Shown here: one piece after another, positions 1-15,007 of the stretch
Layout of the letters: each line of letters opens with the position of its first letter
Position numbering within the stretch: position 1 is the stretch's first letter
Assembly: GCA_964396715.1 (NCBI GenBank)
Contig: CAYNFQ010000001.1
Span: 117,873-181,872, forward strand
Source of the DNA: an uncultured Gammaproteobacteria bacterium
GTDB lineage: Bacteria > Patescibacteriota > Microgenomatia > Daviesbacterales > UBA10151
Direction of reading: 5' to 3'
Length of the DNA: 64,000 nt
The notes under the pieces: model-generated
Seen by the model: the letters and a program-made list of their open reading frames with translations, nothing else
What the model was told of the DNA's origin: nothing
Databases searched by the model: none
Made by a program: the position numbers and the translations under genes

Positions 1-868
1 TTGGGAATATAATTAGTATGCTTAAAGTAAAGAATAGACCAACGGCAACTAAACTATGAATGAATAAAATGAATCCGTCAATTGTAGCGGGTGCTCCAAA
101 ATGATCAAACCCCCAAGCAGTTTTAGGTAATTGTCCTAGCCAATGAACTACCCCCTCTGAAATATTTGGAAAAGTTATATTAATCGGCCAAGCTAGAATA
201 AAACCTCCAAGAGAGATAAATCCTATCAAAGGGATAACAATAGATGAAATTAAGATATAGATTTTATTTTCTTTAAAGAGAAATATGTTGGAGATTATTT
301 GGCCTATTGAAAAAAGGACTAGAAACGACAAAATTGCATATAAGAAATTATTATATCCGCCTGTAAGAACTCTGGAGGCTCCCAAAAATTCTGCCACACC
401 GATGTGGTAATAAGCAAGGTAATCAGGTTGCCAGGGTGTATGCATAGGGTAATCACCTCTTATGAAAGATGAGGAAAGTGAATAATGCATGGTTGAATCA
501 GCGCTAATTGAACCACCGCTTGTAGCAGTAATAATAATCAAAAAAATAGACCAAAAAGAAATTGAAATAAGCCATAAAAATAGAGAAGAATTTTTTGGAA
601 AATTAATTTTTTCTACTGGAAAATTATACTTAATTAACCAGGCAATGATGATTTCCGCAATCAGGCTGATATAAAATCCTGGAGGGCCTTTAATCAGGTG
701 TACTACAGCATTAATTAGGAAAATATAAAAAGCGATTCCCAATATAATCCCCGAAGGGATAACTATTTGCGCTCTAGTTTCGTTGACAACTCTTTTAAGA
801 ATGGTAATTCCACAGATAATCAGTACGGAAAAAAACAAAATGGTTTTAAAATATACTAAAAATTCCAT
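1..868 (-). CDS. Partial (N-terminal ~289 aa) polytopic membrane protein, family-A paralog of 870..3143 and 5314..7656; start ATG at 868-866, runs off the window start
   Basis: Manual reverse-strand translation gives MEFLVYFKTILFFSVLIICGITILKRVVNETRAQIVIPSG...HTPWQPDYLAYYHIGVAEFLG, collinear with N-termini of the two downstream paralogs (shared ITxTS, RGDxPxHTPWQPDY motifs); not in ORF track because no stop inside window. Confidence 0.6.
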   Translation of the reverse strand, partial: MEFLVYFKTILFFSVLIICGITILKRVVNETRAQIVIPSGIILGIAFYIFLINAVVHLIKGPPGFYISLIAEIIIAWLIKYNFPVEKINFPKNSSLFLWLISISFWSIFLIIITATSGGSISADSTMHYSLSSSFIRGDYPMHTPWQPDYLAYYHIGVAEFLGASRVLTGGYNNFLYAILSFLVLFSIGQIISNIFLFKENKIYILISSIVIPLIGFISLGGFILAWPINITFPNISEGVVHWLGQLPKTAWGFDHFGAPATIDGFILFIHSLVAVGLFFTLSILIIFP

Positions 869-869: not shown

Positions 870-3143
870 TTAATTTGTGCTCCATAATTTTAAACCATTG
901 CCAAAGCCTTCCCATATTACCTCGGGGTCACAATTACAAATACTCTTAGGGTCCTTCCCCTGTCTCAAAATCAGATAGTCATAGTGATCTAAATTACCAA
1001 GTATTGGTATTTTTCCCTCAATTCTACTCCAATAGTTGTGGGCACCATAAATATCTCTTTCTCTTAACGTCATCACCATGGCTCGATAAAATTCAATTGA
1101 GTCTTGGTCAATGTAAATTGATCCATCTGATGGAGCTATTCTTGCTAGTTCCTCTAAAGTGCCGCTTAGGGTTTGAGAATTTTCTATATAAGAGGGTAGT
1201 ACCTTTAGGATTGTTTCCGTTGGATCGGAGTAAACTTTTTGAAAATAATCCGGATTTAACAGATCCTGTTTTCTTAAATTAGGCAGGCTGGAGTAATAAA
1301 AGTTATTGATCATTAAATATTCTACCTTGAGGTTTTTTAGTATTCCAGGATTTAAAGTGTAGTATAAATCCACATATGATGGACCTGCATCAAAATTTTC
1401 ATATGCTCTTAAATCAGGGCCAAAAACAGGGGTAAAAACTCCAATCTGTGTTGCCAAATCCATATTGGTTGAGGGAATAGTATTCCCATCAGTTAAGGCA
1501 ACAATTCTTTTCTCCACAGGTAAATTATTTTTTATCCACTCAAAGCTGGGTCTTTTGATTTCTTGAACAATTTTAAACCAAGATAAATCCGATCTTCTGG
1601 GAAAAAGCCTGGCAAATGGTGGAACCAAAGAAAATATTAATATCCAAAGGATCAAAATTTTTAAAACTATGTATTTTTTGCCTTGATGGCTTAACCACCA
1701 ATTTATGATAAAAAATCCAATGCCTATTCCTGATAATTGATATGAAATTGCCAGGAATCTCCATCCATTTGTATGGAACAGTTTTGGCACCAACCCATGG
1801 TAGGCAATCAATGCTGAAAGGGAAGAAATGAGTATTAATGCTAAAATAGTATTAAATTCATAATCTTTTTTTTTAGTTAAGTAAAATACAACAATAATAA
1901 GAAGGGCAAGGAGTTGCCAAATAATACCTATCTGCAACCATCTAAAAGGTTGGAACCTAGGAAGATCTTCAAATAAAGTGGATGCTTGTGAATGCAATCT
2001 AAGACTTCTGAAATTCTCATAAGGATTATTTGGATTATCAGCGGGGAATATTAATATTCCTGAGCCCGTGTGGTATCTATTCAATATAGCTTCTTTGATT
2101 ATTCCGCCCTGAAAAGAAATGATAAACAAAATAGCTAGAGTAGTTAATATCCATAATTTAATTTTTCTTTCAAAGCAAAAAAAGGATACCAAAAATATGG
2201 CAGGTAATATAGAAATTAAAACTGATTCATCAAGCAAAGCAATCGATGCGATCGAAATTATAAGAACAAGGCTAGTTAATAGATTTTTCCTATTGGGATA
2301 CAAAAGGAGAGGAATTAAGCTTAAAAAAATTGAAGTAGAGACTAACCTATGCAATATATAAATTAAGGGATCTAGAAATCCCGCCGAAGCATTAGAAATC
2401 TCAATACTTGGTAGCTTATTTAGCCAGTTTAAAATTCCATTATCAAGATTAGGAAGTGCAAGTTTGCTTGGCCAGACTATCATAAACGCTCCCAAGGAAA
2501 TAAAGCCTATAAAACCCGACAGTGAAAACAATAAAATATTAGAAGATTTTTTAGAAAATAAAATCCAGGTTATGATTTGGATAGAGCAAAATAAAGAGAT
2601 AAGTGCTAAAACAGCATGTATAAAATGATATGAACCTCCAGTTAGAAACCTAACCGCTGCCAGAAGTTGAGAAATGCCTAAATGGGAATAGCTCACATAA
2701 TCAGGTTGCCAGGGAGTATGTATTGGAAAATCTCCTCTTAAAAAAACAGAAGCCTGAGTAAAATAAAAAGTATTATCAGATCCATTAAAGGGGGATGTAT
2801 TGGTAATAATAAGAAAAAATGCACCCCAAAAAAATAAGGTAACAAACCAAGCAATCCTTTGTTTTCCTTGAGGAAATTCTAGTGGATTGGTTTTAATAAG
2901 CTTTACTATGATAAAGGTCAGAAGTAGTTGGATTATTACAGCCGAATAAAATAGTGGCCAGCCTTTTATAAAATGCGCTGAAAAATTTATTAAAAATAAA
3001 AATAGCGATATTCCAAACAAACAACCGGCTGGTAATATGATTTCTGCTCTTCGGGTAGATAACACTCTTTTTGTGATTGTAATTCCACAGTATAGTAGGA
3101 TGGAAAACAAAATTAGTGTTTTAAAGTAAATATACAAAGTCAT
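870..3143 (-). CDS. Polytopic membrane protein (family A), ~12 N-terminal TM helices plus C-terminal soluble domain; possible GT-C-type glycosyltransferase
   Basis: 757-aa ORF; hydrophobic N-terminal two thirds; motifs ITNTSPFNG, HTPWQPDY, HTNGWRFL, RLFPRRSDLSW, LTDGNTIPSTNMDLATQIG shared with 5314..7656. Confidence 0.7.
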   Translation of the reverse strand: MTLYIYFKTLILFSILLYCGITITKRVLSTRRAEIILPAGCLFGISLFLFLINFSAHFIKGWPLFYSAVIIQLLLTFIIVKLIKTNPLEFPQGKQRIAWFVTLFFWGAFFLIITNTSPFNGSDNTFYFTQASVFLRGDFPIHTPWQPDYVSYSHLGISQLLAAVRFLTGGSYHFIHAVLALISLFCSIQIITWILFSKKSSNILLFSLSGFIGFISLGAFMIVWPSKLALPNLDNGILNWLNKLPSIEISNASAGFLDPLIYILHRLVSTSIFLSLIPLLLYPNRKNLLTSLVLIISIASIALLDESVLISILPAIFLVSFFCFERKIKLWILTTLAILFIISFQGGIIKEAILNRYHTGSGILIFPADNPNNPYENFRSLRLHSQASTLFEDLPRFQPFRWLQIGIIWQLLALLIIVVFYLTKKKDYEFNTILALILISSLSALIAYHGLVPKLFHTNGWRFLAISYQLSGIGIGFFIINWWLSHQGKKYIVLKILILWILIFSLVPPFARLFPRRSDLSWFKIVQEIKRPSFEWIKNNLPVEKRIVALTDGNTIPSTNMDLATQIGVFTPVFGPDLRAYENFDAGPSYVDLYYTLNPGILKNLKVEYLMINNFYYSSLPNLRKQDLLNPDYFQKVYSDPTETILKVLPSYIENSQTLSGTLEELARIAPSDGSIYIDQDSIEFYRAMVMTLRERDIYGAHNYWSRIEGKIPILGNLDHYDYLILRQGKDPKSICNCDPEVIWEGFGNGLKLWSTN

Positions 3144-4030: not shown

Positions 4031-5359
4031 CTAGACGATTATTTCTCTAGAGATAATTTCTGCTATGGCCCCCCCCATTTCTATTGCATAGTTTGTTCCT
4101 CTGTCCCAGGGATAAACCATATCCAAATTAGCCAGATAAACATTTTTTAAAGGAGTTTTAAATGTAGGGATTAAATCTTTGTAGTTTGTGGTGACAATGG
4201 GTTGGGCAAAGGGGCCGACAAATTTGTGATAAGTGATAAGTGATAAGTGATAAGTTGGGTTGATTTTTTTAAGATATGGATCAAATTTTTTCAAAATTGA
4301 CTTGGCGGTCATTTTTAAAAACGGATGATCAGATGGTAAGTAATTACCAATATAAATAATGTGCTTCCCCCCATAATGTTTGGGATCCATGAAGTTGGTG
4401 TGTTCTGCAATTATCAAAAATGGGAAGCTGCTGTCAGTGATATTTAACCAGTAAGTTTTTTCCATAAACGGTTTTTTGAGAACCAGAATTAAAACTAAAG
4501 CATGAAGATGGGGGATGGAGCATATTTTTTTAACATATGTTTTTGGAAGATTTGTTGTTATTTTAGCAAAAATGGGGGATGGCAGTGTAATTATTGCTTT
4601 ATCAAAAATGAGTTTTTTAGCACCAGTTTTTATCCTAACATTTTTTCCCGCGGATAACGAGGTAACTGATGTGCCAGTCAAAATTTCTCCTCCCATTTTT
4701 TTAATTTCCTCCCCAAGTCTGTCGGCAAAAGCTTTAAACCCTCCTTCCGGATAAGCAAGCCTTGGAGTTCTTTTTTTAATTCTTGCCCAAAACCAGGATA
4801 ATGCAATATTATCTTTGTAAGAGCCGAACTTTCCGGAAAATAACGGCTCCCACAGCATTTTAGCAGCCCTCTCCCCCATAAAACGCTTAATCCAGGATAA
4901 AGCAAATTTATTTTCAAATTTATCGTAACGGTTGATTAATTTTAGGTACAAAAGGGAAATTCCAACACGCAAACGGTCAATAATTGGGAGCGGAATAAAT
5001 GTTAAAAGAGATTTAGGGCTATCAAAAGGGAATCGCTTACCGTTTACTAAAACATCTGTAGACGGTCTTTTAATTATAACTTTATGTCTCAATTCCCTTG
5101 TTAGATTAAAAGCTGCCTGATCATTAGTAAACCAGTGATGATAGGCTTTCTCCAGTGTCCACCGCCATTTGGGATTTGAAAATCCAATAGCCAGACCGCC
5201 AAGTTCGGATTCTTTTTCAAAAATAGTCACCTTGTAGCCTTTTTTTAGCAAGGTGTATGCGGCTGATAAACCTGTGAAGCCTGCCCCAAGAATTGCAACT
5301 TTATCGGCCCTTTTCATTTTGTTTTCCATAAATTTACTCTTCCGTCCAATCCTGACCAC
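4031..5359 (-). CDS. FAD/NAD(P)-binding oxidoreductase (amine-oxidase/protoporphyrinogen-oxidase/UGM-like superfamily)
   Basis: N-terminal Rossmann dinucleotide motif VAILGAGFTGLSAAYTL...EKESELGGL; 442 aa. Confidence 0.65.
   Translation of the reverse strand: MVRIGRKSKFMENKMKRADKVAILGAGFTGLSAAYTLLKKGYKVTIFEKESELGGLAIGFSNPKWRWTLEKAYHHWFTNDQAAFNLTRELRHKVIIKRPSTDVLVNGKRFPFDSPKSLLTFIPLPIIDRLRVGISLLYLKLINRYDKFENKFALSWIKRFMGERAAKMLWEPLFSGKFGSYKDNIALSWFWARIKKRTPRLAYPEGGFKAFADRLGEEIKKMGGEILTGTSVTSLSAGKNVRIKTGAKKLIFDKAIITLPSPIFAKITTNLPKTYVKKICSIPHLHALVLILVLKKPFMEKTYWLNITDSSFPFLIIAEHTNFMDPKHYGGKHIIYIGNYLPSDHPFLKMTAKSILKKFDPYLKKINPTYHLSLITYHKFVGPFAQPIVTTNYKDLIPTFKTPLKNVYLANLDMVYPWDRGTNYAIEMGGAIAEIISREIIV
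4226..4253. repeat. Perfect heptanucleotide tandem repeat (GTGATAA)x4 inside the oxidoreductase CDS (encodes TYHLSLITYH on minus strand)
   Basis: Read directly: gtgataagtgataagtgataagtgataag. Confidence 0.9.
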
Positions 5360-7656
5360 AGTAATTCAGCCTGGCAATGGCAGATTGATTGAATGTCTAA
5401 ATTATGACCGCCTACAATATAATCATAATGATCTGAACTGATGCCGTAAAAAGGGATATTAATGCTCAATCTGCTATTCCAATAATCTGTTACCCCATAA
5501 AATTTCCTGTCACGTAATATTAAAAGAAGAGGTCTGTACAGGTCGAAAAATTCCTGAGCTGATTTATGATCTATAAAAAAACTTCCCTTTTTCGGTAGTA
5601 TTTTTTCGAGTTCCTCTAAAGTACCCTTCAGATTCTTGCCCTCTTCTAAATATTTAGGCAGTATCTTTACTATTACTTCTCCCGACGGGTCATTTAAGAC
5701 TGGTTGAAAAAACTCACTATTAAATATGTCAGACTTTCTTACTTGGGATAATTGAGATAGATAAAGGTTATCTATTATCAAATAAGAAGGTTTAAGTTTC
5801 TTAAGTGAATTTGGATTTAAAGTATAGTAAAGATCGATATAAGTGGGGCTTATATCAAATCCGTCGTAATTACGGATATCATCGGGCCAAATAGGGGTAT
5901 AAGCTCCAATTTGTTTGACGAGATTCATATTGGAAGAAGGAGTAGGGTTGTCATCGGTTAATGCCAATATTCTTTCGGAAATTGGGATGTTTTGTTTTAC
6001 CCATTCGTAAATTTGTTTTTTCGGTTCAGGTCGTACTGTGATCCATGAGAGATCGGGACGTCTTGGGAAAAGACGCAAGAAGGAGGGAACAAAGGAAAAA
6101 ATCAAAATCCACACAATAAGAAATTTCAAAAAGAAAAATTTTCTTGGAATTTTGCCCCAAAAAAATATTAAAGAGAAACCCACACCAATACCCGCCAGTT
6201 TATATGATAAAAATAAAAACCGCCAGCCATTAGTATGAAAAGGGTTTGGAACTATAATATGGAAAGCAAGAAAGGCGCCTAAAGAGGAAAAAAACATTAT
6301 CAAAATCATAAGTTTTAGTCTTTTTTCTTCCTCATTGTTTTCTTTTTTGGTAAATAATGTAACGTAGGAAGACATAAACAGCAGAAAACCCAGTAGCCAG
6401 ATAATTCCCACTCTAAACCACCTGAATGGTTGCAATGTTGCTAAATCATCATATAGATATGAAGATTGATATGCCAGTCTCCAGCTTCTAAATTTCTCAA
6501 AAGGATTTTCCCTATCCCCAGGCAAAATTAATGTTCCGGAACCCATTTTGTAGCGGTCTAATAGAACCTCTGTGACAGTGCCGCCTTGAATTGCTATTGT
6601 AGCAATTGATAAAAGTACGAAAATGGTTAAGGGGAGCAATCTTCTAAATGTAAATATTGCTATAAAAAAGACCGCTGGCATTGCGGGGATTAATACTGAT
6701 TCATCGGTTAATGCGATTGTTGCAAGAAAGATAACTAAGGTACCTATTGAGATAAGATATTTTTTATTTTCTGATGGAGATAAAAGAACCGGAAGTAAGC
6801 CAATAAAAAAAGACATGGCAGTGACTCTTTGCAGGAAAAGAATGACTGCATCTATTGAAATATAGTCAAGATAGCCAAGGTAAGGAAATTGCGGAGGATT
6901 TGGCATTTCCAAAGCAGGCAGTGATGTTAACCAGTTAACCAAACTGCCATTTATATCAGGTAAAGCTATTTTGGCAGGCCAGGCAAGCATGAAACTGCCT
7001 ACGGAGATAATACCTGCAAAAGGAGGAATAGATAAAATAAGGAAGGACCGGAAACTTTTTGTTTTTTTAAAATCTAAAAGCCAAGTTAGGATTTGACTGC
7101 AAGAAAACAAAGCAAGAAACGCTATGAATGCTTGAATAAAATAATAATTAGCGCCTGTTAAAATCTTAAAAGACCCCAAAAGTTGTGAGGCACCCAAATG
7201 AAGAAAGGCAATATAGTTTGGCTGCCATGGGGCGTGTAGCGGTAAACCCTCTCTAGTAAAGAGGGCTGCAAAGGATTGATATTCAGTATCATGTCCTCCG
7301 TTAAAAGGTGAGGTATTTGTGATAATAAAGAGCAGGACTCCCCAGAAAACAGCTGAAATTATCCAAAATAGCCTTAATGTTTTAGTTGGAAACTCCAGCG
7401 GTTGCACCTTTTGTTTTATATGAATAATTAAAGCTAGGATTATTTCTACTGCTAAACTTATATAAAAAAGGGGTGATCCTTTTATAAAATAGGCAAAGGC
7501 ATTAGTCAAAAAAAGATATAGTGAGAGGCCAAAAATAAGCGCGGTAGGTGCAAGTATTTGTAAACGGTTATCTTTAGTTGCTCTTCTGATAATGGCCATT
7601 CCGCTTAAGAAAATAATTAATGTAAAAATTAAAGTTTTAAGGTATATAAAAAGCAT
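5314..7656 (-). CDS. Polytopic membrane protein (family A paralog); start trimmed to Met98 of the 877-aa ORF by alignment with the 870..3143 paralog
   Basis: MLFIYLKTLIFTLIIF aligns with MTLYIYFKTLILFSIL; trimming also removes the head-to-head overlap with the divergent GT2 gene; motifs ITNTSPFNG, HAPWQPNY, HTNGWRFL, RLFPRRPDLSW, LTDDNPTPSSNMNL. Confidence 0.7.
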   Translation of the reverse strand: MLFIYLKTLIFTLIIFLSGMAIIRRATKDNRLQILAPTALIFGLSLYLFLTNAFAYFIKGSPLFYISLAVEIILALIIHIKQKVQPLEFPTKTLRLFWIISAVFWGVLLFIITNTSPFNGGHDTEYQSFAALFTREGLPLHAPWQPNYIAFLHLGASQLLGSFKILTGANYYFIQAFIAFLALFSCSQILTWLLDFKKTKSFRSFLILSIPPFAGIISVGSFMLAWPAKIALPDINGSLVNWLTSLPALEMPNPPQFPYLGYLDYISIDAVILFLQRVTAMSFFIGLLPVLLSPSENKKYLISIGTLVIFLATIALTDESVLIPAMPAVFFIAIFTFRRLLPLTIFVLLSIATIAIQGGTVTEVLLDRYKMGSGTLILPGDRENPFEKFRSWRLAYQSSYLYDDLATLQPFRWFRVGIIWLLGFLLFMSSYVTLFTKKENNEEEKRLKLMILIMFFSSLGAFLAFHIIVPNPFHTNGWRFLFLSYKLAGIGVGFSLIFFWGKIPRKFFFLKFLIVWILIFSFVPSFLRLFPRRPDLSWITVRPEPKKQIYEWVKQNIPISERILALTDDNPTPSSNMNLVKQIGAYTPIWPDDIRNYDGFDISPTYIDLYYTLNPNSLKKLKPSYLIIDNLYLSQLSQVRKSDIFNSEFFQPVLNDPSGEVIVKILPKYLEEGKNLKGTLEELEKILPKKGSFFIDHKSAQEFFDLYRPLLLILRDRKFYGVTDYWNSRLSINIPFYGISSDHYDYIVGGHNLDIQSICHCQAELLWSGLDGRVNLWKTK

Positions 7657-7738
7657 ACCCTGATACATTATCAAAAAGGTTATGCTTAGTAAAGCTATTG
7701 TTGTAAGCAATTTCACAACTTCAGTTATAATTAGTAAT
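7657..7738. promoter_or_regulatory. Divergent intergenic region between family-A membrane protein gene and GT2 gene; probable bidirectional promoter
   Basis: Only non-coding gap between divergently oriented genes; AT-rich. No consensus elements confirmed. Confidence 0.25.
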
Positions 7739-8455
7739 ATGAAAAATGATTTGAAACAAATGGCTGGGGTGTCTTTAATTATTCCCGTTTTAGATGAAGA
7801 AAAAACTTTAACCGATATAATTTCCAAATGCTCAAAAGAGACAGTAGTGAAACAGCTCGTTATTGTAAATGATGGTTCAACAGATAAGACTAAAAATATC
7901 CTGGATAGATTAAGCAGTGAGAATAAGAATAGTAGGCCTCTTATCACGGTTACTCATCATTCAAAGAATTTAGGGAAAGGTGCAGCTATTAAAACTGGGT
8001 TAACTAGAGTTTTAGGAAAATATGTCATGGTTCAGGATGCGGATTTGGAATATTCTCCTGATGAAATTAAATACCTGTTTAATGAGGCGAAAAAAGAAAA
8101 CAGAATTGTTTTTGGCACAAGATCTCATCATAAAAAAAAGGGTTATCTTCTTGCCCAACTTGGTAACTGGTATTTAAATGTAATGTTTAATTTATTATTT
8201 GGTTACAGTTTAACAGACAGCTATACTTGTTATAAATTGATCCCCCAGACTATTTGGAAAAAAATGAATCTTGTATCAAATGGGTTTGAAATTGATGCCG
8301 AATTAATTTCTAAACTGGGTGTAAATGGTTATAAAATTAAAGAAATTCCTATATCATATTTTCCCAGAAAATATTCAGAGGGTAAAAAAATTAAGTGGTT
8401 GGATCTTTTTAAAGCAACTGCAGTAGCACTAAGGATTCGTTTTAGTCATTTGTAA
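7739..8455 (+). CDS. GT2 glycosyltransferase, polyprenyl-phosphate sugar synthase type (DPM1/ArnC-like)
   Basis: SLIIPVLDEE...VIVNDGSTDKT, DxD motif QDADLEY, C-terminal amphipathic tail; start could be 7682, 7739 or 7760; paralog of 51785..52525. Confidence 0.75.
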   Translation: MKNDLKQMAGVSLIIPVLDEEKTLTDIISKCSKETVVKQLVIVNDGSTDKTKNILDRLSSENKNSRPLITVTHHSKNLGKGAAIKTGLTRVLGKYVMVQDADLEYSPDEIKYLFNEAKKENRIVFGTRSHHKKKGYLLAQLGNWYLNVMFNLLFGYSLTDSYTCYKLIPQTIWKKMNLVSNGFEIDAELISKLGVNGYKIKEIPISYFPRKYSEGKKIKWLDLFKATAVALRIRFSHL

Positions 8456-9393
8456 TGTTTTAAAGCTACCGCTTGGCCATTATTTTCTACAGATTGTTCT
8501 ATTGCAGAGAGCACTTTTACTACTTTAACCCCAAAATTTATATCCGATGTAATTTTTTTGAAACCCTGAATTGCTTTTACAAACTCCGATAATTCTTCGG
8601 TTAATGCTGAATCAGGCTTATATTTTGGATACTCTGGAGGCGTATCCATTTTATGTAATAAGATTTTTTGATCTGTAGTATTTGTAAAATCTAACTCTAA
8701 TTTTTCGCTTCCCCCCTTAACTATTAGTCTTCTAACCTTGTGAGATCCAAACCAACTAATACGAATTGTTGATTTGATACCGTTGATAAAATAGATTAAA
8801 GCTTCAACGCTATCGTATAGGGTGTTTCCGGCTTTTTTTGAACCGGTTGCACTTACTTTTAATATTGGATATTTGACTAAATCAAGTAGTAAAGAAACCG
8901 GATGAGGTCCCCAGTCCCAAATAACGGAAACATCTTTTCTGACAGGGCTGCTCGTACCCTCAAAAAATATTGACTTGACTTTTTTAATCCGTTTAAACTT
9001 TTTTCTAAATACCTGATATGCAGGGTTATATAAATATAGGTGCCCTATTAAAACCTTCGGTTTTTTCATTTGCCAGATTTTTTTAAGCTGTAAAGCCTGA
9101 TCGTAACTTATTGCCAGCGGTTTTTCTATCAATAAATTGCACCCTAAAGATAAAAGTTGATTGGCTATAGCAAAATGTGTACTTGCAGGGCTTGCAATGA
9201 TAAAACCGTCTACCCCTCTTTTTTTAAGCAAATTTTTAACAGATAGTATTTGAATGTATGTATCAGGCAAAAGATCTAATGTTTTCTTACTTCGCGCGCA
9301 AATATATTTGATTTTAACATTGGCTAAAGTGGTAGCGGTATTCAGATAATTTTTACCCCATTTACCTACACCAATAAGCGCTAGAGTAATCAT
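8446..9393 (-). CDS. Gfo/Idh/MocA-family NAD(P)-dependent sugar oxidoreductase
   Basis: N-terminal ALIGVGKWGKNY Rossmann, EKPLA motif; 1-nt TAATG overlap with upstream gene. Confidence 0.75.
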   Translation of the reverse strand: MITLALIGVGKWGKNYLNTATTLANVKIKYICARSKKTLDLLPDTYIQILSVKNLLKKRGVDGFIIASPASTHFAIANQLLSLGCNLLIEKPLAISYDQALQLKKIWQMKKPKVLIGHLYLYNPAYQVFRKKFKRIKKVKSIFFEGTSSPVRKDVSVIWDWGPHPVSLLLDLVKYPILKVSATGSKKAGNTLYDSVEALIYFINGIKSTIRISWFGSHKVRRLIVKGGSEKLELDFTNTTDQKILLHKMDTPPEYPKYKPDSALTEELSEFVKAIQGFKKITSDINFGVKVVKVLSAIEQSVENNGQAVALKHYK

Positions 9394-10451
9394 TACAGTT
9401 GATATGTTTGTTTAAACCAATTGATAGTTTGTTTAAGGCCTGTTCTAAGATCTACTTTTGGTTGGTAATTTAAGTGATTTTTAATCTTTGTTAAATCCGG
9501 GCAGCGTCTTTGCGGTTCTCCGGCAGGATAATTTTCGGGATAATTTTTTCTTCTGGGTTTTACTCCGCTCCCTATCATATCTGCTATTGTTTGGGCCAGT
9601 TCAAACATACCGATTTCCGGATTGTCATTTCCAATATTATAAACCTCACCTTTTTTTCCCGAGATTAATACTTTAAAAATTGCCACAATTGCATCTGTAA
9701 CATAGCAAAAAGTTCGTGTTTGAATTCCTTTGTCATGTACTGGTAAATCTCTCCCGCTTAAGCCACTATAAATAAATGTAGGTATAACTCGGTAGTCAAC
9801 ATGTTTCATACCAGGCCCATAAATATTAAAGGGTCTGACAATTTTAATTGGTATATCATAAAGCTGATGATAAGTAATACATAAAGTTTCGGTGAGCCTT
9901 TTGGATTCATCATAGCAGGCTCTTGGTCCTATGCTGGAAACATGTCCGGCATAAGTTTCCGGAGTTGGGACAAATTTTGGATCCGGATCACCATAAATCT
10001 CGCTTGAGGAAAAAAACAAAAAACTTGCAGGCCTTGAAACCTTTGCCAGTTCCAAAAGATTTTTTGCGCCCAATATTGCACTTTCAATTGTTTCCAATGG
10101 ATATTTTTTATAATAGTATGGAGAAGCAAGCCCTGCGGCGTGGATTATATAATCCACTTTTTCATTAAGGGCAATAGGCTGTCTTATATCTGCATTGAGA
10201 AGTTTAAAATTTTTATCTTTTAAATTTACTAAAAAATTCTCCTTTGATCCTGTTATATAATTATCAATGGAAATAACCCTACATTTATTTTTCAGCACTT
10301 TTTTGTTAAGAAGATACAAAACCGCATTAATATAACTTCCTATAAACCCCGATCCTCCTGAAATAAGTACAATCTTGCCCTCTAAGGCTTTCGCTTCCTT
10401 CTCTATGCTTTTAATGATAGTTTTTAAATCTTTGTCGTTAATTTTTGACAT
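9393..10451 (-). CDS. Extended SDR, UDP-glucuronate decarboxylase (UXS/ArnA-C-terminal)-like NDP-sugar epimerase/dehydratase
   Basis: GGSGFIGS; SEIYGDP...GHVSSIGPRACYDESKRLTETLC closely matches UXS signature SEVYGDP...GPRACYDEGKRVAETMC. Confidence 0.8.
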   Translation of the reverse strand: MSKINDKDLKTIIKSIEKEAKALEGKIVLISGGSGFIGSYINAVLYLLNKKVLKNKCRVISIDNYITGSKENFLVNLKDKNFKLLNADIRQPIALNEKVDYIIHAAGLASPYYYKKYPLETIESAILGAKNLLELAKVSRPASFLFFSSSEIYGDPDPKFVPTPETYAGHVSSIGPRACYDESKRLTETLCITYHQLYDIPIKIVRPFNIYGPGMKHVDYRVIPTFIYSGLSGRDLPVHDKGIQTRTFCYVTDAIVAIFKVLISGKKGEVYNIGNDNPEIGMFELAQTIADMIGSGVKPRRKNYPENYPAGEPQRRCPDLTKIKNHLNYQPKVDLRTGLKQTINWFKQTYQL

Positions 10452-10454
10452 TTA

Positions 10455-11708
10455 TTAAATTATTGTAGGATCTGGAACGGGTATTATAAAGCTACCCCCG
10501 CGCCTTTTATAATCTTTTAATCTTTCCATTATTGAATCTGCAAAATTCCAGGCCAAAATTAATATGTAATCAGGGTTTGTTTCATCTATTTTGTCAGAGG
10601 GGACAACTAAAATATGGGTGCCCGGTGTATATAAGCCTTGTTTATATTTACTGTCATCCACTATATAATCTAAAATTTTTGGTTCTATTTTAAAATAATT
10701 TAAAAGTGTATTTCCTTTGGCAGGAGCGCCGTATCCTACGATAGTTTTATTTTTTGATTTAAGCTTTTTTAAAATATGCATTAACTTCTTTTTATTTTTC
10801 TCAATTTTTTTAGCAAACCTTAAATAAATTCCTGTTTTATTGAGCCCAAGTCTTTTTTCGTTATTAATATAATCAGCGACAGATTTTTGTATTTTGTATT
10901 TTGCTCCAAGTTTTTTAACATAAACTCTTAAAGATCCTCCGTGTGAATTTACCTTTTTGACATCAAAAATTTCCATGCCAAGCCTTTTAAAAATAGCAGA
11001 TAGAGGTCGGATTGAAAGATAAGATAAATGTTCATGATAAATTGTATCGAATAAGTTTTTTTCTATGAAATCAACTAAATATGGGAATTCAATTACAAAA
11101 ACGCCATTCTCGCCTGTTAAAATTTTTACCGATTCTATTATTTCGTCTAAGTTATGAATATGGGCAAATGCGTTGTTTGCAGTTACTACTTTTGCATGCC
11201 CGAATTTTTTAACAATATCCTTAGCAAGCTTTATGTTTAGAAAATTTGGTAAAGTTTTAATACCAGAGAGCGTTGCCTTTTTTGCTATGGCAACAGCCGG
11301 ATCTACACCCAACACTTTCACCAGAGCCTTTTTAAGAGGCTTAAGCAGGATGCCGTCATTTGAGCCAATATCAATTACCATAGATTTCTTATCCAATTCA
11401 AACCTCTTAATTAAATCCCGAGCATACTCTTCAAAGTGTGCTATAAACACAGGCGAAGTAGATGAAACGTAAACGTAGTTTCTAAAAAGCAAGTCGGGGG
11501 AAACAACGTGGGTAAGTTGTAGCTGATTGCAGTCTAAACAGAAATTAACCTCAAGAGGGAAAAAATGCTCTTTTTTTCTTAAATCAGTTTTCTTTAAAAA
11601 AGCATTGGCAGGAGGGGTCGCAGACAAGGAGATCACGCTTTTTAAATTCTTGCCTTTACACATTCTGCAAAAGTTTAGTTTAAATACCAGGAGATTATTC
11701 TTTTTCAT
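10455..11708 (-). CDS. NDP-hexose C-methyltransferase-like (Zn-ribbon N-terminus + class I MTase + C-methyltransferase C-terminal domain; TylCIII-like)
   Basis: N-terminal CRMC...CLDC zinc-binding pattern typical of sugar C3-methyltransferases; MTase core VIDIGSNDG. Confidence 0.65.
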   Translation of the reverse strand: MKKNNLLVFKLNFCRMCKGKNLKSVISLSATPPANAFLKKTDLRKKEHFFPLEVNFCLDCNQLQLTHVVSPDLLFRNYVYVSSTSPVFIAHFEEYARDLIKRFELDKKSMVIDIGSNDGILLKPLKKALVKVLGVDPAVAIAKKATLSGIKTLPNFLNIKLAKDIVKKFGHAKVVTANNAFAHIHNLDEIIESVKILTGENGVFVIEFPYLVDFIEKNLFDTIYHEHLSYLSIRPLSAIFKRLGMEIFDVKKVNSHGGSLRVYVKKLGAKYKIQKSVADYINNEKRLGLNKTGIYLRFAKKIEKNKKKLMHILKKLKSKNKTIVGYGAPAKGNTLLNYFKIEPKILDYIVDDSKYKQGLYTPGTHILVVPSDKIDETNPDYILILAWNFADSIMERLKDYKRRGGSFIIPVPDPTII

Positions 11709-12144
11709 CTGAAGTAATTTTAACTCTTACCGTATCCCCTTCATATTTACTTTGTTCTCTGGGTTCGGTTGTAACAGCCAAAAAAACACTATCCTCCAAA
11801 AACTCCATAGAATGTGCGATCATTGGTTTAGAAAGTACAAGGTCCCCCGGATTTAAAATTACCGATTCTATTTTAGAATTTGGGTCAGCCATATTTTTTT
11901 CCGAATACTTAAACTTTCCGCTTACGCAATATACAAAATGATAGTCTTTTTTATGATAATGATTGCCTCTTTCGGTTCCTGCTTTGCTTGTTATATATAG
12001 AACAGCCATAAATTGCGTTTTACCACCGTCAATCAATCGGGTTATATAACCTCTCTCATCTTCAAACTCGGGTTTTGTATGGGTAACTTTTATCGCCATA
12101 TTTAATTTAGGCTTAAGTGTATAGAGGATTTTATTCCTTGTCAA
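11695..12144 (-). CDS. Cupin-fold sugar isomerase/epimerase (WxcM/FdtA-like dTDP-4-keto-6-deoxyhexose isomerase family)
   Basis: GNHYHKKDYHFVYCVSGKF cupin metal/His motif; 149 aa; paralog of 28160..28552. Confidence 0.6.
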   Translation of the reverse strand: MTRNKILYTLKPKLNMAIKVTHTKPEFEDERGYITRLIDGGKTQFMAVLYITSKAGTERGNHYHKKDYHFVYCVSGKFKYSEKNMADPNSKIESVILNPGDLVLSKPMIAHSMEFLEDSVFLAVTTEPREQSKYEGDTVRVKITSDEKE

Positions 12145-12185
12145 ATATTTCTTTAATTGAAGATAAGCTAATTGGATATTATGAT

Positions 12186-13037
12186 ATGATTTGTTTTATG
12201 TTATTGGTCTCCATTATTATAACCACCAAAAACGAGCAGAAGAATATTGGCAGACTGCTTGATTCAATAAACGCCCAGAGCTATAAAAATATTGAAACTA
12301 TTTTGGTTGATAATAACTCTTCTGATCAGACTAAAGATGTTGCGAAAAAACTGGGAGCTAAAGTTTACAATTTTGGTCCGGAAAGATCTGCCCAGAGAAA
12401 TTTTGGCGCTAAAGTAGCCAGGGGAAAATACTTATTATTTGTTGATGCGGATATGGAACTTTCAAAAGATGTAGTTTTACAATGTGTCAAATTAATGGAG
12501 AAAAATGAGGAAACAGTAGCTTTAGCCATACCGGAAAATCCAATCGCCAGCACTTTTTGGGATAAAGTGAAAGCACATGAAAGATTAATCTATAACAGGG
12601 AAGGCGATCCGGTAACCGATGCCGCAAGATTTTTTAGAAAAGAAATTTTTATGAGGGTCGGCGGATATGATGAAACAATAACCGGTCCTGAAGATTGGGA
12701 TTTACCGGAAACAATAAAAGAGGCGGGTTTTAAAATAGGCAGGATTTCAGGGTATATCAATCATAGGGAGAGGGTACTTTCCCCTCTAACTCTGGCAAGG
12801 AAGAAATTCTACTACGGCTTGGGCGCTCACAGATATTTGGAAAAGCACAAAATTCCTATAGTTGGCCCTAAAACCGTCTATTTTTTAAGGCCGATATTCT
12901 ATAAAAACTGGCTTAAGCTTATCAAAAATCCTTTTTTAACTTTGGCTATGATATTCATGATGACGGCAGAGCTTTTAGGCGGAGGATTGGGCTATTTAAT
13001 TGGGCTATATAATAGTAGAAGGATTAAAAGATTATGA
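12186..13037 (+). CDS. GT2 glycosyltransferase
   Basis: VSIIITTKNEQKNI...VDNNSSDQT, DAD motif; start moved to Met24 to avoid overlap with convergent cupin gene. Confidence 0.75.
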   Translation: MICFMLLVSIIITTKNEQKNIGRLLDSINAQSYKNIETILVDNNSSDQTKDVAKKLGAKVYNFGPERSAQRNFGAKVARGKYLLFVDADMELSKDVVLQCVKLMEKNEETVALAIPENPIASTFWDKVKAHERLIYNREGDPVTDAARFFRKEIFMRVGGYDETITGPEDWDLPETIKEAGFKIGRISGYINHRERVLSPLTLARKKFYYGLGAHRYLEKHKIPIVGPKTVYFLRPIFYKNWLKLIKNPFLTLAMIFMMTAELLGGGLGYLIGLYNSRRIKRL

Positions 13038-14158: not shown

Positions 14159-14189
14159 GCTGAAGAATCTTTTGGCAAATGTTGGGGAT

Positions 14190-14966
14190 ATGGCTCTTAA
14201 AGCAAGGGCTGTAAATATTGTTTTGGGCTTGGGTCTAGAAGATCAAGACAAAATATTAGATATAGGCTGCGGAAATGGTTATTATTTATATCTTTTAAAT
14301 AATTTAGAGGTTAAAGTTGCATTAACAGGTGTAGATAGTGATGATAATGCCTTGAAATCAGCACGAGAGATTGTAGATAACAAAAATATAAAACTGCTTA
14401 AAGCAGATGCTACAAAGCTACCATTTAAAGACTTAAGTTTTGATAAAGTTTTAATGTCCGAGGTGATTGAGCATATAGATGCGGAGGAAAAGGCTTTGTC
14501 TGAGATCAAAAGAGTACTTAAGCCTGGTGGGTTGCTTGTTTTGACTACCTGCAATATTGACTATCCTTTTTTTTGGGATCCAATAAATTGGATACTCCAG
14601 GGTTTGTTTAATACTCACATAAGGTCTGGTTTTTGGGCAGGAATTTGGAACCACCATATAAGATTATACAAGATGGACAGGTTAAAAAAATTAATAGTAA
14701 AAGAAGGATTTATGGTGGAGGAAATTAAACCGTTGACATTCTGGTGTATTCCATTTAACCACTATCTTGTTAATTTTATGGCCAGGTTATTTTATTCAGA
14801 TAAGCTGCCAAAGAATATTTCCCGGGGCATAAATAAATTTGATACAGGCAGACAAATTCCTATGGTAAAGTTTATATTCTGGTTAGTCAATAAAATAGAT
14901 TATTTGAATGAATTATTTCCACAAAAGAGCGGTGTGTCAATTTTTGTTAAAGCTGTTAGAAAATGA
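14190..14966 (+). CDS. Class I SAM-dependent methyltransferase
   Basis: ILDIGCGNGYY motif I, SEVIEHI; ORF opens at 14097 but Met at 14190 avoids overlap with GT4 gene. Confidence 0.7.
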   Translation: MALKARAVNIVLGLGLEDQDKILDIGCGNGYYLYLLNNLEVKVALTGVDSDDNALKSAREIVDNKNIKLLKADATKLPFKDLSFDKVLMSEVIEHIDAEEKALSEIKRVLKPGGLLVLTTCNIDYPFFWDPINWILQGLFNTHIRSGFWAGIWNHHIRLYKMDRLKKLIVKEGFMVEEIKPLTFWCIPFNHYLVNFMARLFYSDKLPKNISRGINKFDTGRQIPMVKFIFWLVNKIDYLNELFPQKSGVSIFVKAVRK

Positions 14967-15007
14967 TTTATGTTGACGATTAGTAAACTTTAGGCTAAAC
15001 TCAGCTC

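What the first reader, a model, noticed from the sequence alone, without database searches (positions are those of the whole stretch)
8446..12144. Candidate branched-chain (C-methylated) deoxy/pentose sugar module
Minus-strand run: cupin isomerase (FdtA/WxcM-like), Zn-ribbon C-methyltransferase (TylCIII-like), UXS-like UDP-glucuronate decarboxylase SDR, Gfo/Idh/MocA oxidoreductase. C-methylated sugars are rare outside actinomycete antibiotics. Pairing with a UXS-type decarboxylase hints at a C-methylated pentose or 4-keto-pentose derivative as a glycan building block.
Basis: partly seen in the sequence, partly recalled or inferred. Interest (0 to 1): 0.5.

Follow-up and report, generated by a model that had tools for sequence, protein, structure and literature searches.

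The report
Conserved cassette for a C-methylated pentose
Four co-transcribed genes in this candidate-phyla-radiation bacterium belong to a gene cassette, found from ultra-small bacteria and archaea to Prochlorococcus and magnetotactic bacteria but not described in the papers I could search, that most likely turns UDP-glucuronic acid into a methyl-branched five-carbon sugar for the cell surface.

Summary
Four minus-strand genes overlap or nearly abut:
- Cupin, 11695-12099. The 12144 end is an ORF artefact.
- TylC3/MtmC-type sugar C-methyltransferase (C-MT), 10455-11708. It has the zinc-binding domain PF08421 and the C-terminal domain PF08484 (2.7e-59).
- UDP-xylose-synthase (UXS)-type dehydrogenase (SDR), 9393-10451. 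Best solved relative is human UXS1 (1.7e-60), and all UXS signature residues are kept.
- Gfo/Idh/MocA oxidoreductase, 8446-9393.

- In 53 of 81 loci, from more than 15 phylum-level groups including DPANN archaea, a UXS-like SDR is adjacent or fused to the C-MT.
- 32 loci carry all four genes in the same order.
- These C-MTs fall in one clade.
- Fusions occur in several orders: C-MT–UXS, UXS–C-MT, cupin–C-MT, C-MT–cupin and GT2–cupin–C-MT.
- UDP-glucose dehydrogenase lies inside related operons.
- An ArnC-like GT2 accompanies the cassette in 26 of 55 loci.
- In this window, three tandem GT-C-fold membrane glycosyltransferases lie next to it.

Best reading: UDP-GlcA → UDP-4-keto-pentose → C-methylation → keto tailoring and reduction → polyprenyl-phosphate carrier → surface glycan. 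This is an Arn-like route to a branched pentose. Not resolved: which carbon is methylated, whether the cupin is an isomerase or an epimerase, and the acceptor. I found no paper describing this. I rate it a new variant of a known kind, interest 0.6.

The parts
11695..12099 (-). Small cupin (134 aa), first gene of the operon. It is an enolising nucleotide-sugar cupin of the FdtA/QdtA, CapF-C or RmlC kind. Whether it is a ketoisomerase or an epimerase is unresolved.
   Evidence: - Pfam: FdtA 31.5 bits (cutoff 23) and PF14667 27.7 bits (cutoff 28.7).
- Profile against PDB: best QdtA 3.4e-6, FdtA 1.8e-4, with oxalate-decarboxylase cupins and RmlC close behind.
- His47-x-His49, Asp52, His54 and His96 are conserved in 48 cassette cupins.
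- Fused to the C-MT in P0060, P0080, P0336, P0342, P0371 and P0325.
10455..11708 (-). SAM-dependent nucleotide-sugar C-methyltransferase, TylC3/MtmC/TcaB9 family (417 aa).
   Evidence: - Pfam: PF08421 4.8e-21, PF13489 9.3e-16, PF08484 2.7e-59.
- PDB: MtmC 8.2e-90, TcaB9 3.5e-69, KijD1 3.8e-67.
- Zinc ligands Cys14, 17, 57 and 60 are present.
- TcaB9 Y76/H181/Y222/E224/H225 correspond to window Y78/H183/Y224/E226/H227, which are conserved.
- It belongs to a 60-leaf clade that holds all C-MTs scored as adjacent to a UXS-like SDR.
9393..10451 (-). UXS/ArnA-type extended SDR (352 aa). Predicted UDP-glucuronate 4-oxidase/decarboxylase that supplies UDP-4-keto-pentose.
   Evidence: - PDB: human UXS1 1.7e-60 (208 bits), against 3.8e-30 for the best dTDP-glucose 4,6-dehydratase.
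- hUXS1 T118/S119/E120/Y147/K151/R277 (PMC3438964) correspond to window S149/S150/E151/Y180/K184/R316.
- These positions are kept in 51-55 of 55 partner SDRs.
- JGI names close relatives 'UDP-glucuronate decarboxylase'.
- Fused to the C-MT in L005, L009, L010, P0267 and P0274.
8446..9393 (-). Gfo/Idh/MocA NAD(P)-dependent oxidoreductase (315 aa). Predicted ketoreductase that finishes the sugar.
   Evidence: - Pfam: PF01408 4.8e-15, PF22725 1.1e-7.
- Best NCBIfam: UDP-GlcNAc 3-dehydrogenase, 92 bits, far below its cutoff.
- EKP and WDWGPH motifs are conserved in 34 cassette copies.
- Best PDB hit is 3c1a at 3.1e-25. 3c1a is 76/59/66% identical to the cassette Gfo of L037/L045/L035, so it is an orthologue with no assigned function.
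12100..12197 (.). 98-bp divergent intergenic region between the cupin operon and the plus-strand glycan operon.
   Evidence: - Minus-strand promoter-like site TTGACA-17-TACACT at 12144->12116, 10 of 12 matches, the joint-highest score in the region (10 of 12).
- Plus-strand promoter-like site TTGAAG-17-TATGAT at 12157-12185.
- The total count of promoter-like sites in the region is not above shuffles (21 against 20), so only the position of these sites is suggestive.
7739..8455 (+). ArnC/DPM1/AglJ-like GT2 (238 aa). Predicted polyprenyl-phosphate sugar synthase that takes the UDP-sugar. Convergent with the Gfo gene.
   Evidence: - Pfam: PF00535 6.4e-27.
- NCBIfam best hits: AglJ, PgaC/IcaA, then ArnC and PpgS.
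- Best PDB hits: ArnC 9bhc/8vxh 4.5e-11, GtrB and DPMS.
- A homologue lies within 5 kb of the C-MT in 26 of 55 cassette loci, usually directly upstream of the cupin on the same strand.
- GT2–cupin–C-MT triple fusion in P0325.
5314..7716 (-). GT-C-fold membrane glycosyltransferase, paralogue 2 (about 800 aa).
   Evidence: 46% identical to the 870-3143 protein. No Pfam hit. The fold is inferred from the model of its paralogue.
870..3143 (-). GT-C-fold membrane glycosyltransferase, paralogue 1 (757 aa). Candidate user of the polyprenyl-phosphate-linked sugar.
   Evidence: - No Pfam or PDB sequence hit.
- Only 25 homologues found.
- AF2 model pLDDT 80.3, pTM 0.85.
- Foldseek top hits are PglB and AftA.
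2..868 (-). C-terminal part of a third GT-C paralogue, cut by the window edge.
   Evidence: 38-39% identical to the other two over 279-289 aa.

Best explanation
The four genes are one copy of a widely distributed cassette. I propose it builds a UDP-linked, C-methyl-branched pentose from UDP-glucuronic acid.

Proposed steps:
1. The UXS/ArnA-type SDR oxidises C-4 with NAD+ and decarboxylates C-6, giving UDP-4-keto-pentose. The family and its signature residues are shown; the activity is inferred.
2. The TylC3/MtmC-type C-methyltransferase transfers a methyl group from SAM to the carbon next to the ketone via an enolate. By precedent this is C-3. The family and catalytic residues are shown; the substrate and regiochemistry are inferred.
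3. The small cupin enolises the same keto-sugar. It either moves the ketone (3,4-ketoisomerase) or epimerises C-3. If it acts first as an isomerase, the methyl would land on C-4 or C-2. This step is unresolved.
4. The Gfo/Idh/MocA oxidoreductase reduces the remaining ketone and fixes its stereochemistry (inferred). In loci that lack Gfo, the SDR's own reductive half-reaction or an MtmC-like reductase activity could do this.
5. An ArnC-like GT2 loads the sugar onto a polyprenyl phosphate. GT-C enzymes then transfer it to an envelope acceptor outside the membrane. This parallels the Arn (L-Ara4N) pathway. It is inferred from association and fold.
For: - Family assignments.
- UXS signature residues are conserved in the window SDR and in 51-55 of 55 partner SDRs.
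- C-MT catalytic and zinc residues are conserved.
- Synteny: 53 of 81 loci have the UXS-like SDR adjacent or fused to the C-MT. 32 loci have cupin–C-MT–SDR–Gfo in the same order. They come from more than 15 phylum-level groups, including Woesearchaeota and Nanoarchaeia.
- All adjacency-positive C-MTs fall in one 60-leaf NJ clade. 24 other C-MTs, several of them next to NTP-transferase genes, fall outside it.
- Fusions occur in several orders: C-MT–UXS, UXS–C-MT, cupin–C-MT, C-MT–cupin and GT2–cupin–C-MT.
- UDP-glucose 6-dehydrogenase sits directly upstream of the cassette in L064 (Ugd–cupin–C-MT–SDR–GT2).
- L003 has a second, independently derived operon: NTP-transferase–UXS-like–Ugd–C-MT2–Gfo.
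- An ArnC-like GT2 is associated in 26 of 55 loci, and its best PDB hit is ArnC.
- The neighbouring membrane proteins have a GT-C fold.
- Precedent: UXS-type enzymes release UDP-4-keto-xylose for downstream branching or amination, as with EvdS6, ArnA and CalS9 (PMC10338323).
Against: - There is no biochemical evidence at all.
- No UDP-glucose dehydrogenase lies in the 64-kb window. The rest of the genome could not be inspected.
- The SDR keeps the Glu-Arg pair that in human UXS1 holds the 4-keto intermediate and NADH in the active site. It could therefore be a plain UDP-xylose synthase. ArnA keeps the same pair (my own knowledge), and the EvdS6 study found no structural determinant of release.
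- The cupin's role is unresolved.
- The cupin and Gfo are missing from some complete loci.
- Four C-MTs of the clade lack an adjacent SDR.
- The GT-C paralogues were not found next to the cassette in the two other Daviesbacteria loci held here.
- I found no report of a natural glycan containing a C-methyl-pentose of this origin.
Confidence: 0.6

Rival explanations
1. Same cassette logic, but a different uronic-acid substrate. The SDR decarboxylates UDP-GlcNAcA (as Bacillus UXNAcS does) or UDP-GalA. The product would then be a C-methylated 2-acetamido-pentose or another pentose epimer.
For: - The window's divergent operon encodes a WlbA/WlbB/WlbC-like set, which in known systems works on UDP-GlcNAc(A).
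- The partner SDRs are much closer to each other (300-626 bits) than to human UXS1 (208 bits), so they may have their own specificity.
Against: - The dehydrogenase found inside related operons scores best as UDP-glucose 6-dehydrogenase: TuaD 460 bits against 143-185 bits for UDP-ManNAc dehydrogenase.
- The Wlb-like genes recur in only 5 cassette loci.
Confidence: 0.15
2. The neighbours are functionally independent. The SDR is an ordinary UDP-xylose synthase that supplies xylose. The C-MT, cupin and Gfo act on a 4-keto-6-deoxyhexose made elsewhere, as in classical TylC3 pathways.
For: - All characterised relatives of the C-MT use dTDP-4-keto-(2)6-deoxyhexoses.
- The SDR keeps the full UXS signature, including the Arg gate.
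- The window holds other SDRs that could act as dehydratases.
Against: - C-MT–UXS and UXS–C-MT fusions exist.
- 53 of 81 loci show adjacency, and the C-MT clade is tied to the partner.
- C-MTs outside the clade, not those inside it, sit beside NTP-transferase genes typical of deoxyhexose routes.
- No 4,6-dehydratase-like SDR recurs in cassette loci.
Confidence: 0.08
3. The C-MT methylates C-5 of the 4-keto-pentose, as NovU-type members do (my own knowledge). This would give a UDP-4-keto-6-deoxyhexose, or a 5,5-dimethyl sugar after two rounds. The cupin and Gfo would then convert it to a 6-deoxyhexose. The product would not be 'branched' in the usual sense.
For: - C-5 is also next to the 4-ketone.
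- A ketoisomerase or epimerase followed by a ketoreductase is the normal tailoring set for 4-keto-6-deoxyhexoses.
- A C-3 epimerase acting before a C-3 methylation would be pointless, so a cupin that is an epimerase fits better with methylation at C-5.
Against: - The closest solved relatives are all 3-C-methyltransferases.
- A one-step 4,6-dehydratase route to the same product is ubiquitous, so such a detour has no obvious selective rationale (inference).
Confidence: 0.07

Closest known systems
TylC3 / EryBIII / MtmC / TcaB9 / KijD1 nucleotide-sugar 3-C-methyltransferase pathways (actinomycete deoxysugars)
   Same: Same three-domain architecture: zinc domain, class I SAM methyltransferase and PF08484. 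Same catalytic residues. Same requirement for a ketone next to the carbon being methylated. Same companions, an enolising cupin and a ketoreductase.
   Different: The keto-sugar supplier here is a UXS-type decarboxylase, not a 4,6-dehydratase. The expected substrate is a UDP-pentose rather than a dTDP-6-deoxyhexose. The context is envelope glycan genes in CPR, DPANN and many Gram-negative phyla, not antibiotic clusters. These C-MTs form their own clade.
Arn (L-Ara4N) lipid A modification pathway: ArnA C-terminal domain, ArnC, ArnT
   Different: The 4-ketone is proposed to be C-methylated and reduced, not transaminated and formylated. The cassette has no ArnB, ArnA formyltransferase domain or ArnD. 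The acceptor is unknown. The GT-C association is not universal.
EvdS6 / AviE2 and eurekanate branching in orthosomycins
   Same: A UXS-family enzyme releases UDP-4-keto-xylose, which becomes the substrate for carbon branching (PMC10338323).
   Different: Branching there is a two-carbon transfer proposed to use a TPP-dependent enzyme at C-4, in an actinomycete antibiotic cluster. Here it is a one-carbon SAM-dependent methylation in a pan-prokaryotic glycan cassette.
UDP-apiose/UDP-xylose synthase (plant and bacterial)
   Same: It makes a branched pentose from UDP-GlcA via a UXS-like SDR and a 4-keto intermediate (PMC5607165; 6h0p scores 1.2e-18 against the window SDR).
   Different: The apiose branch arises by ring contraction within one enzyme, with no added carbon. 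Here a separate methyltransferase adds a carbon. The window SDR is much closer to UXS than to apiose synthase.
FdtA/QdtA 3,4-ketoisomerases and the CapF C-terminal cupin (C-3 epimerase)
   Same: Small cupin with the His-x-His plus distal His cluster. It passes the Pfam FdtA cutoff and is just under the PF14667 cutoff.
   Different: The relationship is only remote: 3.4e-6 at best with a profile. Extra invariant residues Asp52 and His54 are present. The fold search does not rank ketoisomerases above epimerases.

Membership tests
Nucleotide-sugar C-methyltransferase (TylC3/TcaB9/MtmC; PF08421+PF13489+PF08484) | N-terminal four-Cys zinc-binding domain | tested here: met
   PF08421 4.8e-21. Cys14, 17, 57 and 60 are present. 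C17, C57 and C60 are invariant in A1, and C14 is at least 90% conserved over 81 sequences.
Nucleotide-sugar C-methyltransferase (TylC3/TcaB9/MtmC; PF08421+PF13489+PF08484) | C-terminal C-methyltransferase domain PF08484 | tested here: met
   2.7e-59, 200 bits, profile positions 2-160 of 160.
Nucleotide-sugar C-methyltransferase (TylC3/TcaB9/MtmC; PF08421+PF13489+PF08484) | Catalytic residues of TcaB9 (Y76, H181, Y222, E224, H225; the list of residues is from my own knowledge of the TcaB9 mutant structures) | tested here: met
   They align to window Y78, H183, Y224, E226 and H227. All are invariant in A1.
Nucleotide-sugar C-methyltransferase (TylC3/TcaB9/MtmC; PF08421+PF13489+PF08484) | Substrate is an NDP-4-keto-6-deoxyhexose, methylated at C-3 | not testable with these tools
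   Context points to a UDP-4-keto-pentose instead. The regiochemistry is unknown.
UDP-glucuronate decarboxylase (UXS/ArnA-type extended SDR) | Thr/Ser-Ser-Glu, Tyr-x3-Lys and the Arg that pairs with the Glu (hUXS1 T118, S119, E120, Y147, K151, R277) | tested here: met
   Window S149, S150, E151, Y180, K184 and R316. Kept in 51-55 of 55 partner SDRs. 4,6-dehydratases have Asp-Glu after the Thr (own knowledge), and the paper says epimerases have Ser and Thr at the Glu and Arg positions.
UDP-glucuronate decarboxylase (UXS/ArnA-type extended SDR) | Closer to UXS than to any other extended SDR | tested here: met
   hUXS1 at 208 bits, against the next-best family (dTDP-glucose 4,6-dehydratase) at 108 bits.
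UDP-glucuronate decarboxylase (UXS/ArnA-type extended SDR) | Decarboxylase activity on UDP-GlcA, and the product released (UDP-xylose or UDP-4-keto-pentose) | not testable with these tools
   The EvdS6 study found no sequence or structural determinant of release.
FdtA/QdtA 3,4-ketoisomerase | Match to PF05523 above the gathering score, and the catalytic His-x-His pair | tested here: met
   31.5 bits against a cutoff of 23. RGNHYHKK aligns to RGYHSHKK of QdtA. H47 is invariant and H49 is at least 90% conserved.
FdtA/QdtA 3,4-ketoisomerase | Closer to ketoisomerases than to other nucleotide-sugar cupins (RmlC-like or CapF-like epimerases) | tested here: inconclusive
   - Profile search: QdtA 3.4e-6, oxalate decarboxylase 4.4e-5, RmlC-like 6.6e-4.
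- PF14667 scores 27.7 bits against a cutoff of 28.7.
Gfo/Idh/MocA oxidoreductase | N-terminal Rossmann domain, EKP motif and Asp-x3-His in the C-terminal domain | tested here: met
   PF01408 and PF22725. LIEKPL and WDWGPH are conserved in 34 cassette copies.
Gfo/Idh/MocA oxidoreductase | Which sugar carbon it reduces or oxidises | not testable with these tools
   The best named model is UDP-GlcNAc 3-dehydrogenase at 92 bits against a cutoff of 450. The orthologous structure 3c1a has no assigned function.
Arn (L-Ara4N) pathway | ArnC-type GT2 and a GT-C transferase alongside a UXS-type decarboxylase | tested here: met
   [not shown]
Arn (L-Ara4N) pathway | ArnB aminotransferase, ArnA formyltransferase domain and ArnD deformylase acting on the pentose | tested here: not met
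   None is in the cassette. The DegT gene at 16508-17695 belongs to a Wlb-like set and recurs in only 5 loci. The formyltransferase at 20189-21106 has a two-domain (Formyl_trans_N + Formyl_trans_C) architecture, which I read as Fmt-like, and lies among housekeeping genes. The module therefore works like Arn but is not the Arn pathway.

The most novel reading that the evidence does not exclude
A previously unrecognised, horizontally spread, pan-prokaryotic pathway. It has a five-gene core: ArnC-like GT2, cupin, C-MT, UXS-like SDR and Gfo. It makes a UDP-C-methyl-pentose, a sugar not yet reported from any glycan, and delivers it through a polyprenyl-phosphate carrier to the cell envelope. Carriers include CPR bacteria, DPANN archaea, Prochlorococcus, magnetotactic Rhodospirillaceae, Elusimicrobia, Verrucomicrobia and others. 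It would be the first SAM-dependent C-methylation of a decarboxylase-derived 4-keto-pentose.
Probability: 0.45. Interest if true: 0.72.

Novelty: new variant of a known kind. Interest (0 to 1): 0.6.

Why it matters
All characterised members of this C-methyltransferase family sit downstream of 4,6-dehydratases and make 6-deoxyhexoses, mostly for antibiotics.

A conserved pairing with a UDP-glucuronate decarboxylase would define a second entry point into branched-sugar chemistry. It would also predict a new monosaccharide on the surfaces of many environmentally dominant but poorly studied microbes. These include episymbiotic CPR and DPANN cells, whose surface glycans are likely to mediate host contact.

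The prediction is directly testable. The cassette occurs in organisms named from cultured strains (Magnetospirillum sp. SS-4, Paramagnetospirillum marisnigri SP-1, Sorangium sp. So ce1078). One component already has an unannotated crystal structure (3c1a). The expected masses of the intermediates are unambiguous.

It would also give glyco-engineers a SAM-dependent route to C-methyl-pentose nucleotides.

Tried and rejected
- **Sinorhizobium meliloti pSymB.** It has a C-MT 41% identical to the window's, and I recalled that this species has a characterised UXS. The C-MT there is not next to a UXS-like SDR (only a 106-bit, 29%-identical SDR match, and no UXS-like one, about 8 kb away). The record also carries no annotation. 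Not a cassette member.
- **Phage collection.** Eight records matched, the best at 41% identity in an unannotated 642-kb metagenomic phage. Not followed.
- **Isomerase or epimerase for the cupin.** A family profile against the PDB and a structure model were both tried. Neither discriminates.
- **Sequence determinant of 4-keto release by the SDR.** The Glu/Arg gate is conserved, and the literature says release is kinetic rather than structural. Dropped.
- **Literature.** Six full-text searches on C-methyltransferase with UXS, 4-keto-pentose, ketoisomerase, C-methyl-xylose or CPR terms found no description of this pairing. One search was badly designed and uninformative. One further search call was rejected for a malformed term and returned nothing.
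- **Whether the genome encodes UDP-glucose dehydrogenase.** Only the 64-kb window could be checked, and it has none.

Full report
**Source and setting.** The window is part of contig JACPUL010000012.1 of assembly GCA_016192255.1. This is a low-GC metagenome-assembled genome (32-40% GC). Its close relatives are labelled Candidatus Daviesbacteria or Microgenomates, which belong to the candidate phyla radiation. Roughly the first 36 kb examined in detail, plus a further GT2 at 51785-52525, are dominated by glycan-synthesis genes.

**Observation.** The four minus-strand ORFs exist as described. They form one operon.
- The cupin (11695-12099) overlaps the C-methyltransferase (C-MT, 10455-11708) by 14 nt.
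- The C-MT stops 3 nt before the SDR (9393-10451).
- The SDR overlaps the Gfo/Idh/MocA gene (8446-9393) by 1 nt.
That TTG is the first base of the -35 hexamer of the joint-best-scoring (10 of 12) promoter-like site in the region (TTGACA-17-TACACT, 12144->12116).
- The public gene call starts at ATG 12099. The number of promoter-like sites in the region is no higher than in shuffles, so only the position of this site is suggestive.

**What each protein is.**

*C-MT.*
- It has the complete three-domain architecture: PF08421 4.8e-21, PF13489 9.3e-16 and PF08484 2.7e-59.
- It matches the solved 3-C-methyltransferases MtmC (8.2e-90), TcaB9 (3.5e-69) and KijD1 (3.8e-67) end to end.
- The four zinc cysteines are present and conserved, as are the residues that align with TcaB9 Y76, H181, Y222, E224 and H225.

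*SDR.*
- It matches human UDP-xylose synthase at 1.7e-60, against 3.8e-30 for the best dTDP-glucose 4,6-dehydratase.
- The hUXS1 paper names Thr118, Ser119, Glu120, Tyr147, Lys151 and Arg277 as the active site. It states that Glu120 and Arg277 are invariant in UXS enzymes and are replaced in the related epimerases (PMC3438964).
- In the window protein these positions are Ser149, Ser150, Glu151, Tyr180, Lys184 and Arg316.

*Cupin.*
- It passes the Pfam FdtA cutoff (31.5 against 23 bits).
- It keeps the His-x-His pair and the distal His that align with QdtA and FdtA.
- It scores almost as well on PF14667, the CapF C-terminal cupin family (27.7 against a cutoff of 28.7).
- A family profile finds QdtA at only 3.4e-6, with metal cupins and RmlC-like epimerases close behind.
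- So it is a nucleotide-sugar-type enolising cupin. 'Isomerase' is not established.

*Gfo/Idh/MocA protein.*
- It has the Rossmann domain and the EKP and Asp-x3-His motifs.
- Its best solved relative, 3c1a, is an unannotated Magnetospirillum structural-genomics entry. It is 76%, 59% and 66% identical to the Gfo genes that sit in the same cassette position in Phaeospirillum, Paramagnetospirillum and Magnetospirillum.

**Is the association real?** I scanned one genome per species for relatives of the C-MT.
- At least 593 genomes hold a relative, and the best 80 loci were fetched.
- I blasted the window's four proteins against all ORFs of those loci. With the window's own locus included, 53 of 81 loci have a UXS-like SDR adjacent to or fused with the C-MT. 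These SDRs score 200-626 bits (about 300-626 for full-length copies) and are 44-82% identical to the window SDR, which is far closer than human UXS1.
- 32 loci have cupin–C-MT–SDR–Gfo in that order on one strand.
- Carriers include Daviesbacteria, Harrison-, Sung- and Taylorbacteria, Woesearchaeota, Nanoarchaeia, Gamma- and Alphaproteobacteria (Magnetospirillum, Phaeospirillum, Rickettsiales), Sorangium, Prochlorococcus, Verrucomicrobia, Elusimicrobia, Omnitrophota, Marinamargulisbacteria, Nitrospinaceae, Chloroflexota and Tectomicrobia.
- In a neighbour-joining tree of 85 C-MTs (no bootstrap), one 60-leaf clade holds all 52 adjacency-positive sequences, three contig-truncated ones and five scored negative.
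  - One of the five is an ORF-calling artefact.
  - The other four lack an adjacent SDR within the DNA available downstream (about 1.1-3.4 kb).
- The other 24 C-MTs fall outside the clade, including second paralogues in four loci. Nine of the loci whose C-MT falls outside the clade carry an NTP-transferase gene within the stretch fetched, as expected for classical NDP-hexose routes.
- The UXS signature residues are kept in 51-55 of the 55 partner SDRs.

**Gene fusions.** These give independent evidence.
- Archaeal loci L005, L009 and L010 encode a single 768-aa C-MT–SDR protein.
- An exhaustive HMMER search of 1.84 billion cluster representatives found 17,283 family members at E<=1e-3 and 4,240 at E<=1e-30. 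Among the best 150, 25 are long proteins. They include:
  - C-MT–UXS-like (P0267, with SSEIYG and YDESKR motifs);
  - the reverse order, UXS-like–C-MT (P0274);
  - cupin–C-MT (P0060, P0080, P0336);
  - C-MT–cupin (P0342, P0371);
  - a GT2–cupin–C-MT triple fusion (P0325).
- Fusions in both orders imply repeated, independent selection for physical coupling.

**Where the substrate comes from and where the product goes.**
- The window has no UDP-glucose 6-dehydrogenase.
- In the Chloroflexota locus L064 the order is Ugd–cupin–C-MT–SDR–GT2.
- In the Daviesbacteria locus L003 a second operon lies just upstream of the cassette: NTP-transferase, UXS-like SDR, Ugd, a divergent C-MT paralogue, Gfo, DUF5672 and a PMT_2 GT-C. 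The C-MT/UXS/Gfo combination has therefore been assembled at least twice, once with the whole supply line from sugar-1-phosphate.
- The window's plus-strand GT2 at 7739-8455 resembles AglJ, ArnC, PpgS and DPM synthases. Its best solved hits are ArnC (4.5e-11), GtrB and DPMS.
- A homologue of this GT2 lies within 5 kb in 26 of 55 cassette loci, typically directly upstream of the cupin on the same strand.
- Next to it the window has three tandem paralogous polytopic proteins with no Pfam or PDB sequence match.
  - PMT_2-type or other large membrane proteins lie within 5 kb in five cassette loci, with a second family of large polytopic proteins (no Pfam match) near three.
  - The Daviesbacteria-specific paralogues themselves were not seen next to the cassette in L002 or L003.

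**Mechanism proposed.**
1. UDP-GlcA is oxidised at C-4 and decarboxylated by the SDR to UDP-4-keto-pentose.
2. The C-MT uses the acidity next to the ketone to add a methyl group from SAM.
3. The cupin and Gfo tailor and reduce the keto-sugar.
4. The ArnC-like GT2 makes the polyprenyl-phosphate-linked sugar.
5. GT-C enzymes transfer it outside the membrane.

What is shown: the family identities, the conserved catalytic residues, the synteny, the fusions and the folds. What is inferred: every activity, the nucleotide, the order of steps and the acceptor.

Two regiochemical schemes remain open.
- **Scheme (a).** Direct 3-C-methylation of the 4-keto-pentose, as in all solved relatives, followed by 4-ketoreduction.
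- **Scheme (b).** The cupin first moves the ketone to C-3. Methylation then falls on C-4 or C-2, and Gfo reduces C-3.

Evidence bearing on the schemes:
- Gfo occurs with the cupin in 32 loci and without it in only one testable locus (L024).
- The cupin occurs without Gfo in about nine complete loci.
- Five complete loci have only the C-MT and SDR.
- This pattern suits a core C-MT/SDR reaction, with the final reduction possibly done by the SDR itself. The cupin and Gfo would be an add-on that changes position or stereochemistry.
- EvdS6 shows that a UXS-type enzyme can release the 4-keto product first and reduce it later. The same study found no structural signature of release (PMC10338323). 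The conserved Glu-Arg gate therefore does not decide the matter.

**Comparison with known systems.** The module works like a TylC3-type branched-sugar pathway joined to an Arn-type delivery route.
- It is a member of the C-MT, UXS and Gfo families by every sequence criterion I could test.
- It is not the Arn pathway, because it has no ArnB, formyltransferase or ArnD.
- It is not a classical deoxyhexose pathway, because no 4,6-dehydratase partner recurs.
- The nearest precedent for carbon branching on a decarboxylase-derived 4-keto-pentose is eurekanate in everninomicin, proposed to use a TPP enzyme. The other route to branched pentoses from UDP-GlcA is apiose, made by ring contraction.
- Six full-text searches found nothing on a C-MT/UXS pairing. 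The library lacks most subscription-journal papers, so prior work cannot be excluded.

**Verdict.**
- The 'rare outside actinomycetes' premise is wrong at gene level.
- This is a new variant of a known kind of pathway. It is widespread and experimentally tractable, but uncharacterised.
- Interest 0.6. Confidence in the C-methyl-pentose reading about 0.6. Confidence in any particular regiochemistry is low.

Noticed in passing
[not shown]
   Followed up: yes
window 3204-3953 and 4031-5359 (minus): A class I methyltransferase and a flavin amine-oxidase-like protein (PF01593 1.3e-28) sit between two of the GT-C paralogues. Their role is unknown. L013 also has an FAD-type oxidoreductase beside a GT2 and a large membrane protein next to its cassette, but it is not detectably homologous.
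   Followed up: no
window 12198-18659 (plus): The divergent operon encodes a GT2, a GT4, a methyltransferase, a WlbA-like Gfo/Idh/MocA (UDP-GlcNAc 3-dehydrogenase model, 173 bits), a NeuD/PglB-type hexapeptide acetyltransferase, a DegT aminotransferase and an SDR. This resembles the set for a UDP-2,3-diacetamido-2,3-dideoxy sugar.
   Followed up: partly
window 27351-30761 (plus): A second cupin (28106-28552, PF14667 3.7e-29) lies between a short SDR (27351-28163) and an FnlA/CapE-like dehydratase (28555-29628, PF02719 2.1e-97). A UDP-GlcNAc 2-epimerase follows (29625-30761). This looks like a CapE/CapF/CapG (UDP-L-FucNAc-type) pathway with CapF split into separate SDR and cupin genes.
   Followed up: partly
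window 32128-34377 (plus) and 51785-52525 (plus): Another GT-C, with an AftD-like N-terminal domain (PF11847 1.8e-11), and a second ArnC-like GT2 that is 39% identical to the one beside the cassette. The window therefore holds at least two polyprenyl-phosphate-sugar systems.
   Followed up: no
L003 1472-9308 and L002 3792-9507: Other Daviesbacteria carry a second, divergent C-MT module immediately upstream of the cassette: NTP-transferase, UXS-like SDR, Ugd, C-MT2, Gfo, DUF5672 and a PMT_2 GT-C. The window itself has no second C-MT. The association with DUF5672 is unexplained.
   Followed up: partly
window 10455-11708; P0001 and many database entries: Many public gene calls for this C-MT are 402 aa and start at Met16. 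That start removes Cys14, the first zinc ligand. The 417-aa start at 11708 is the one consistent with the conserved CxxC.
   Followed up: partly
PDB 3c1a against L037, L045 and L035: An unannotated structural-genomics crystal structure (a Magnetospirillum 'putative oxidoreductase') is the orthologue of the cassette's Gfo/Idh/MocA enzyme. A structure of one pathway enzyme therefore already exists, without a function.
   Followed up: yes
phage record LR756502.1, 452403-453623: A 642-kb uncultured 'phage' genome encodes a C-MT 41% identical to the window's. Its context was not examined.
   Followed up: no
window 38636-49031 (plus): Three very large ORFs (1167, 1205 and 894 aa) lie downstream of the glycan genes. 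They were not examined.
   Followed up: no
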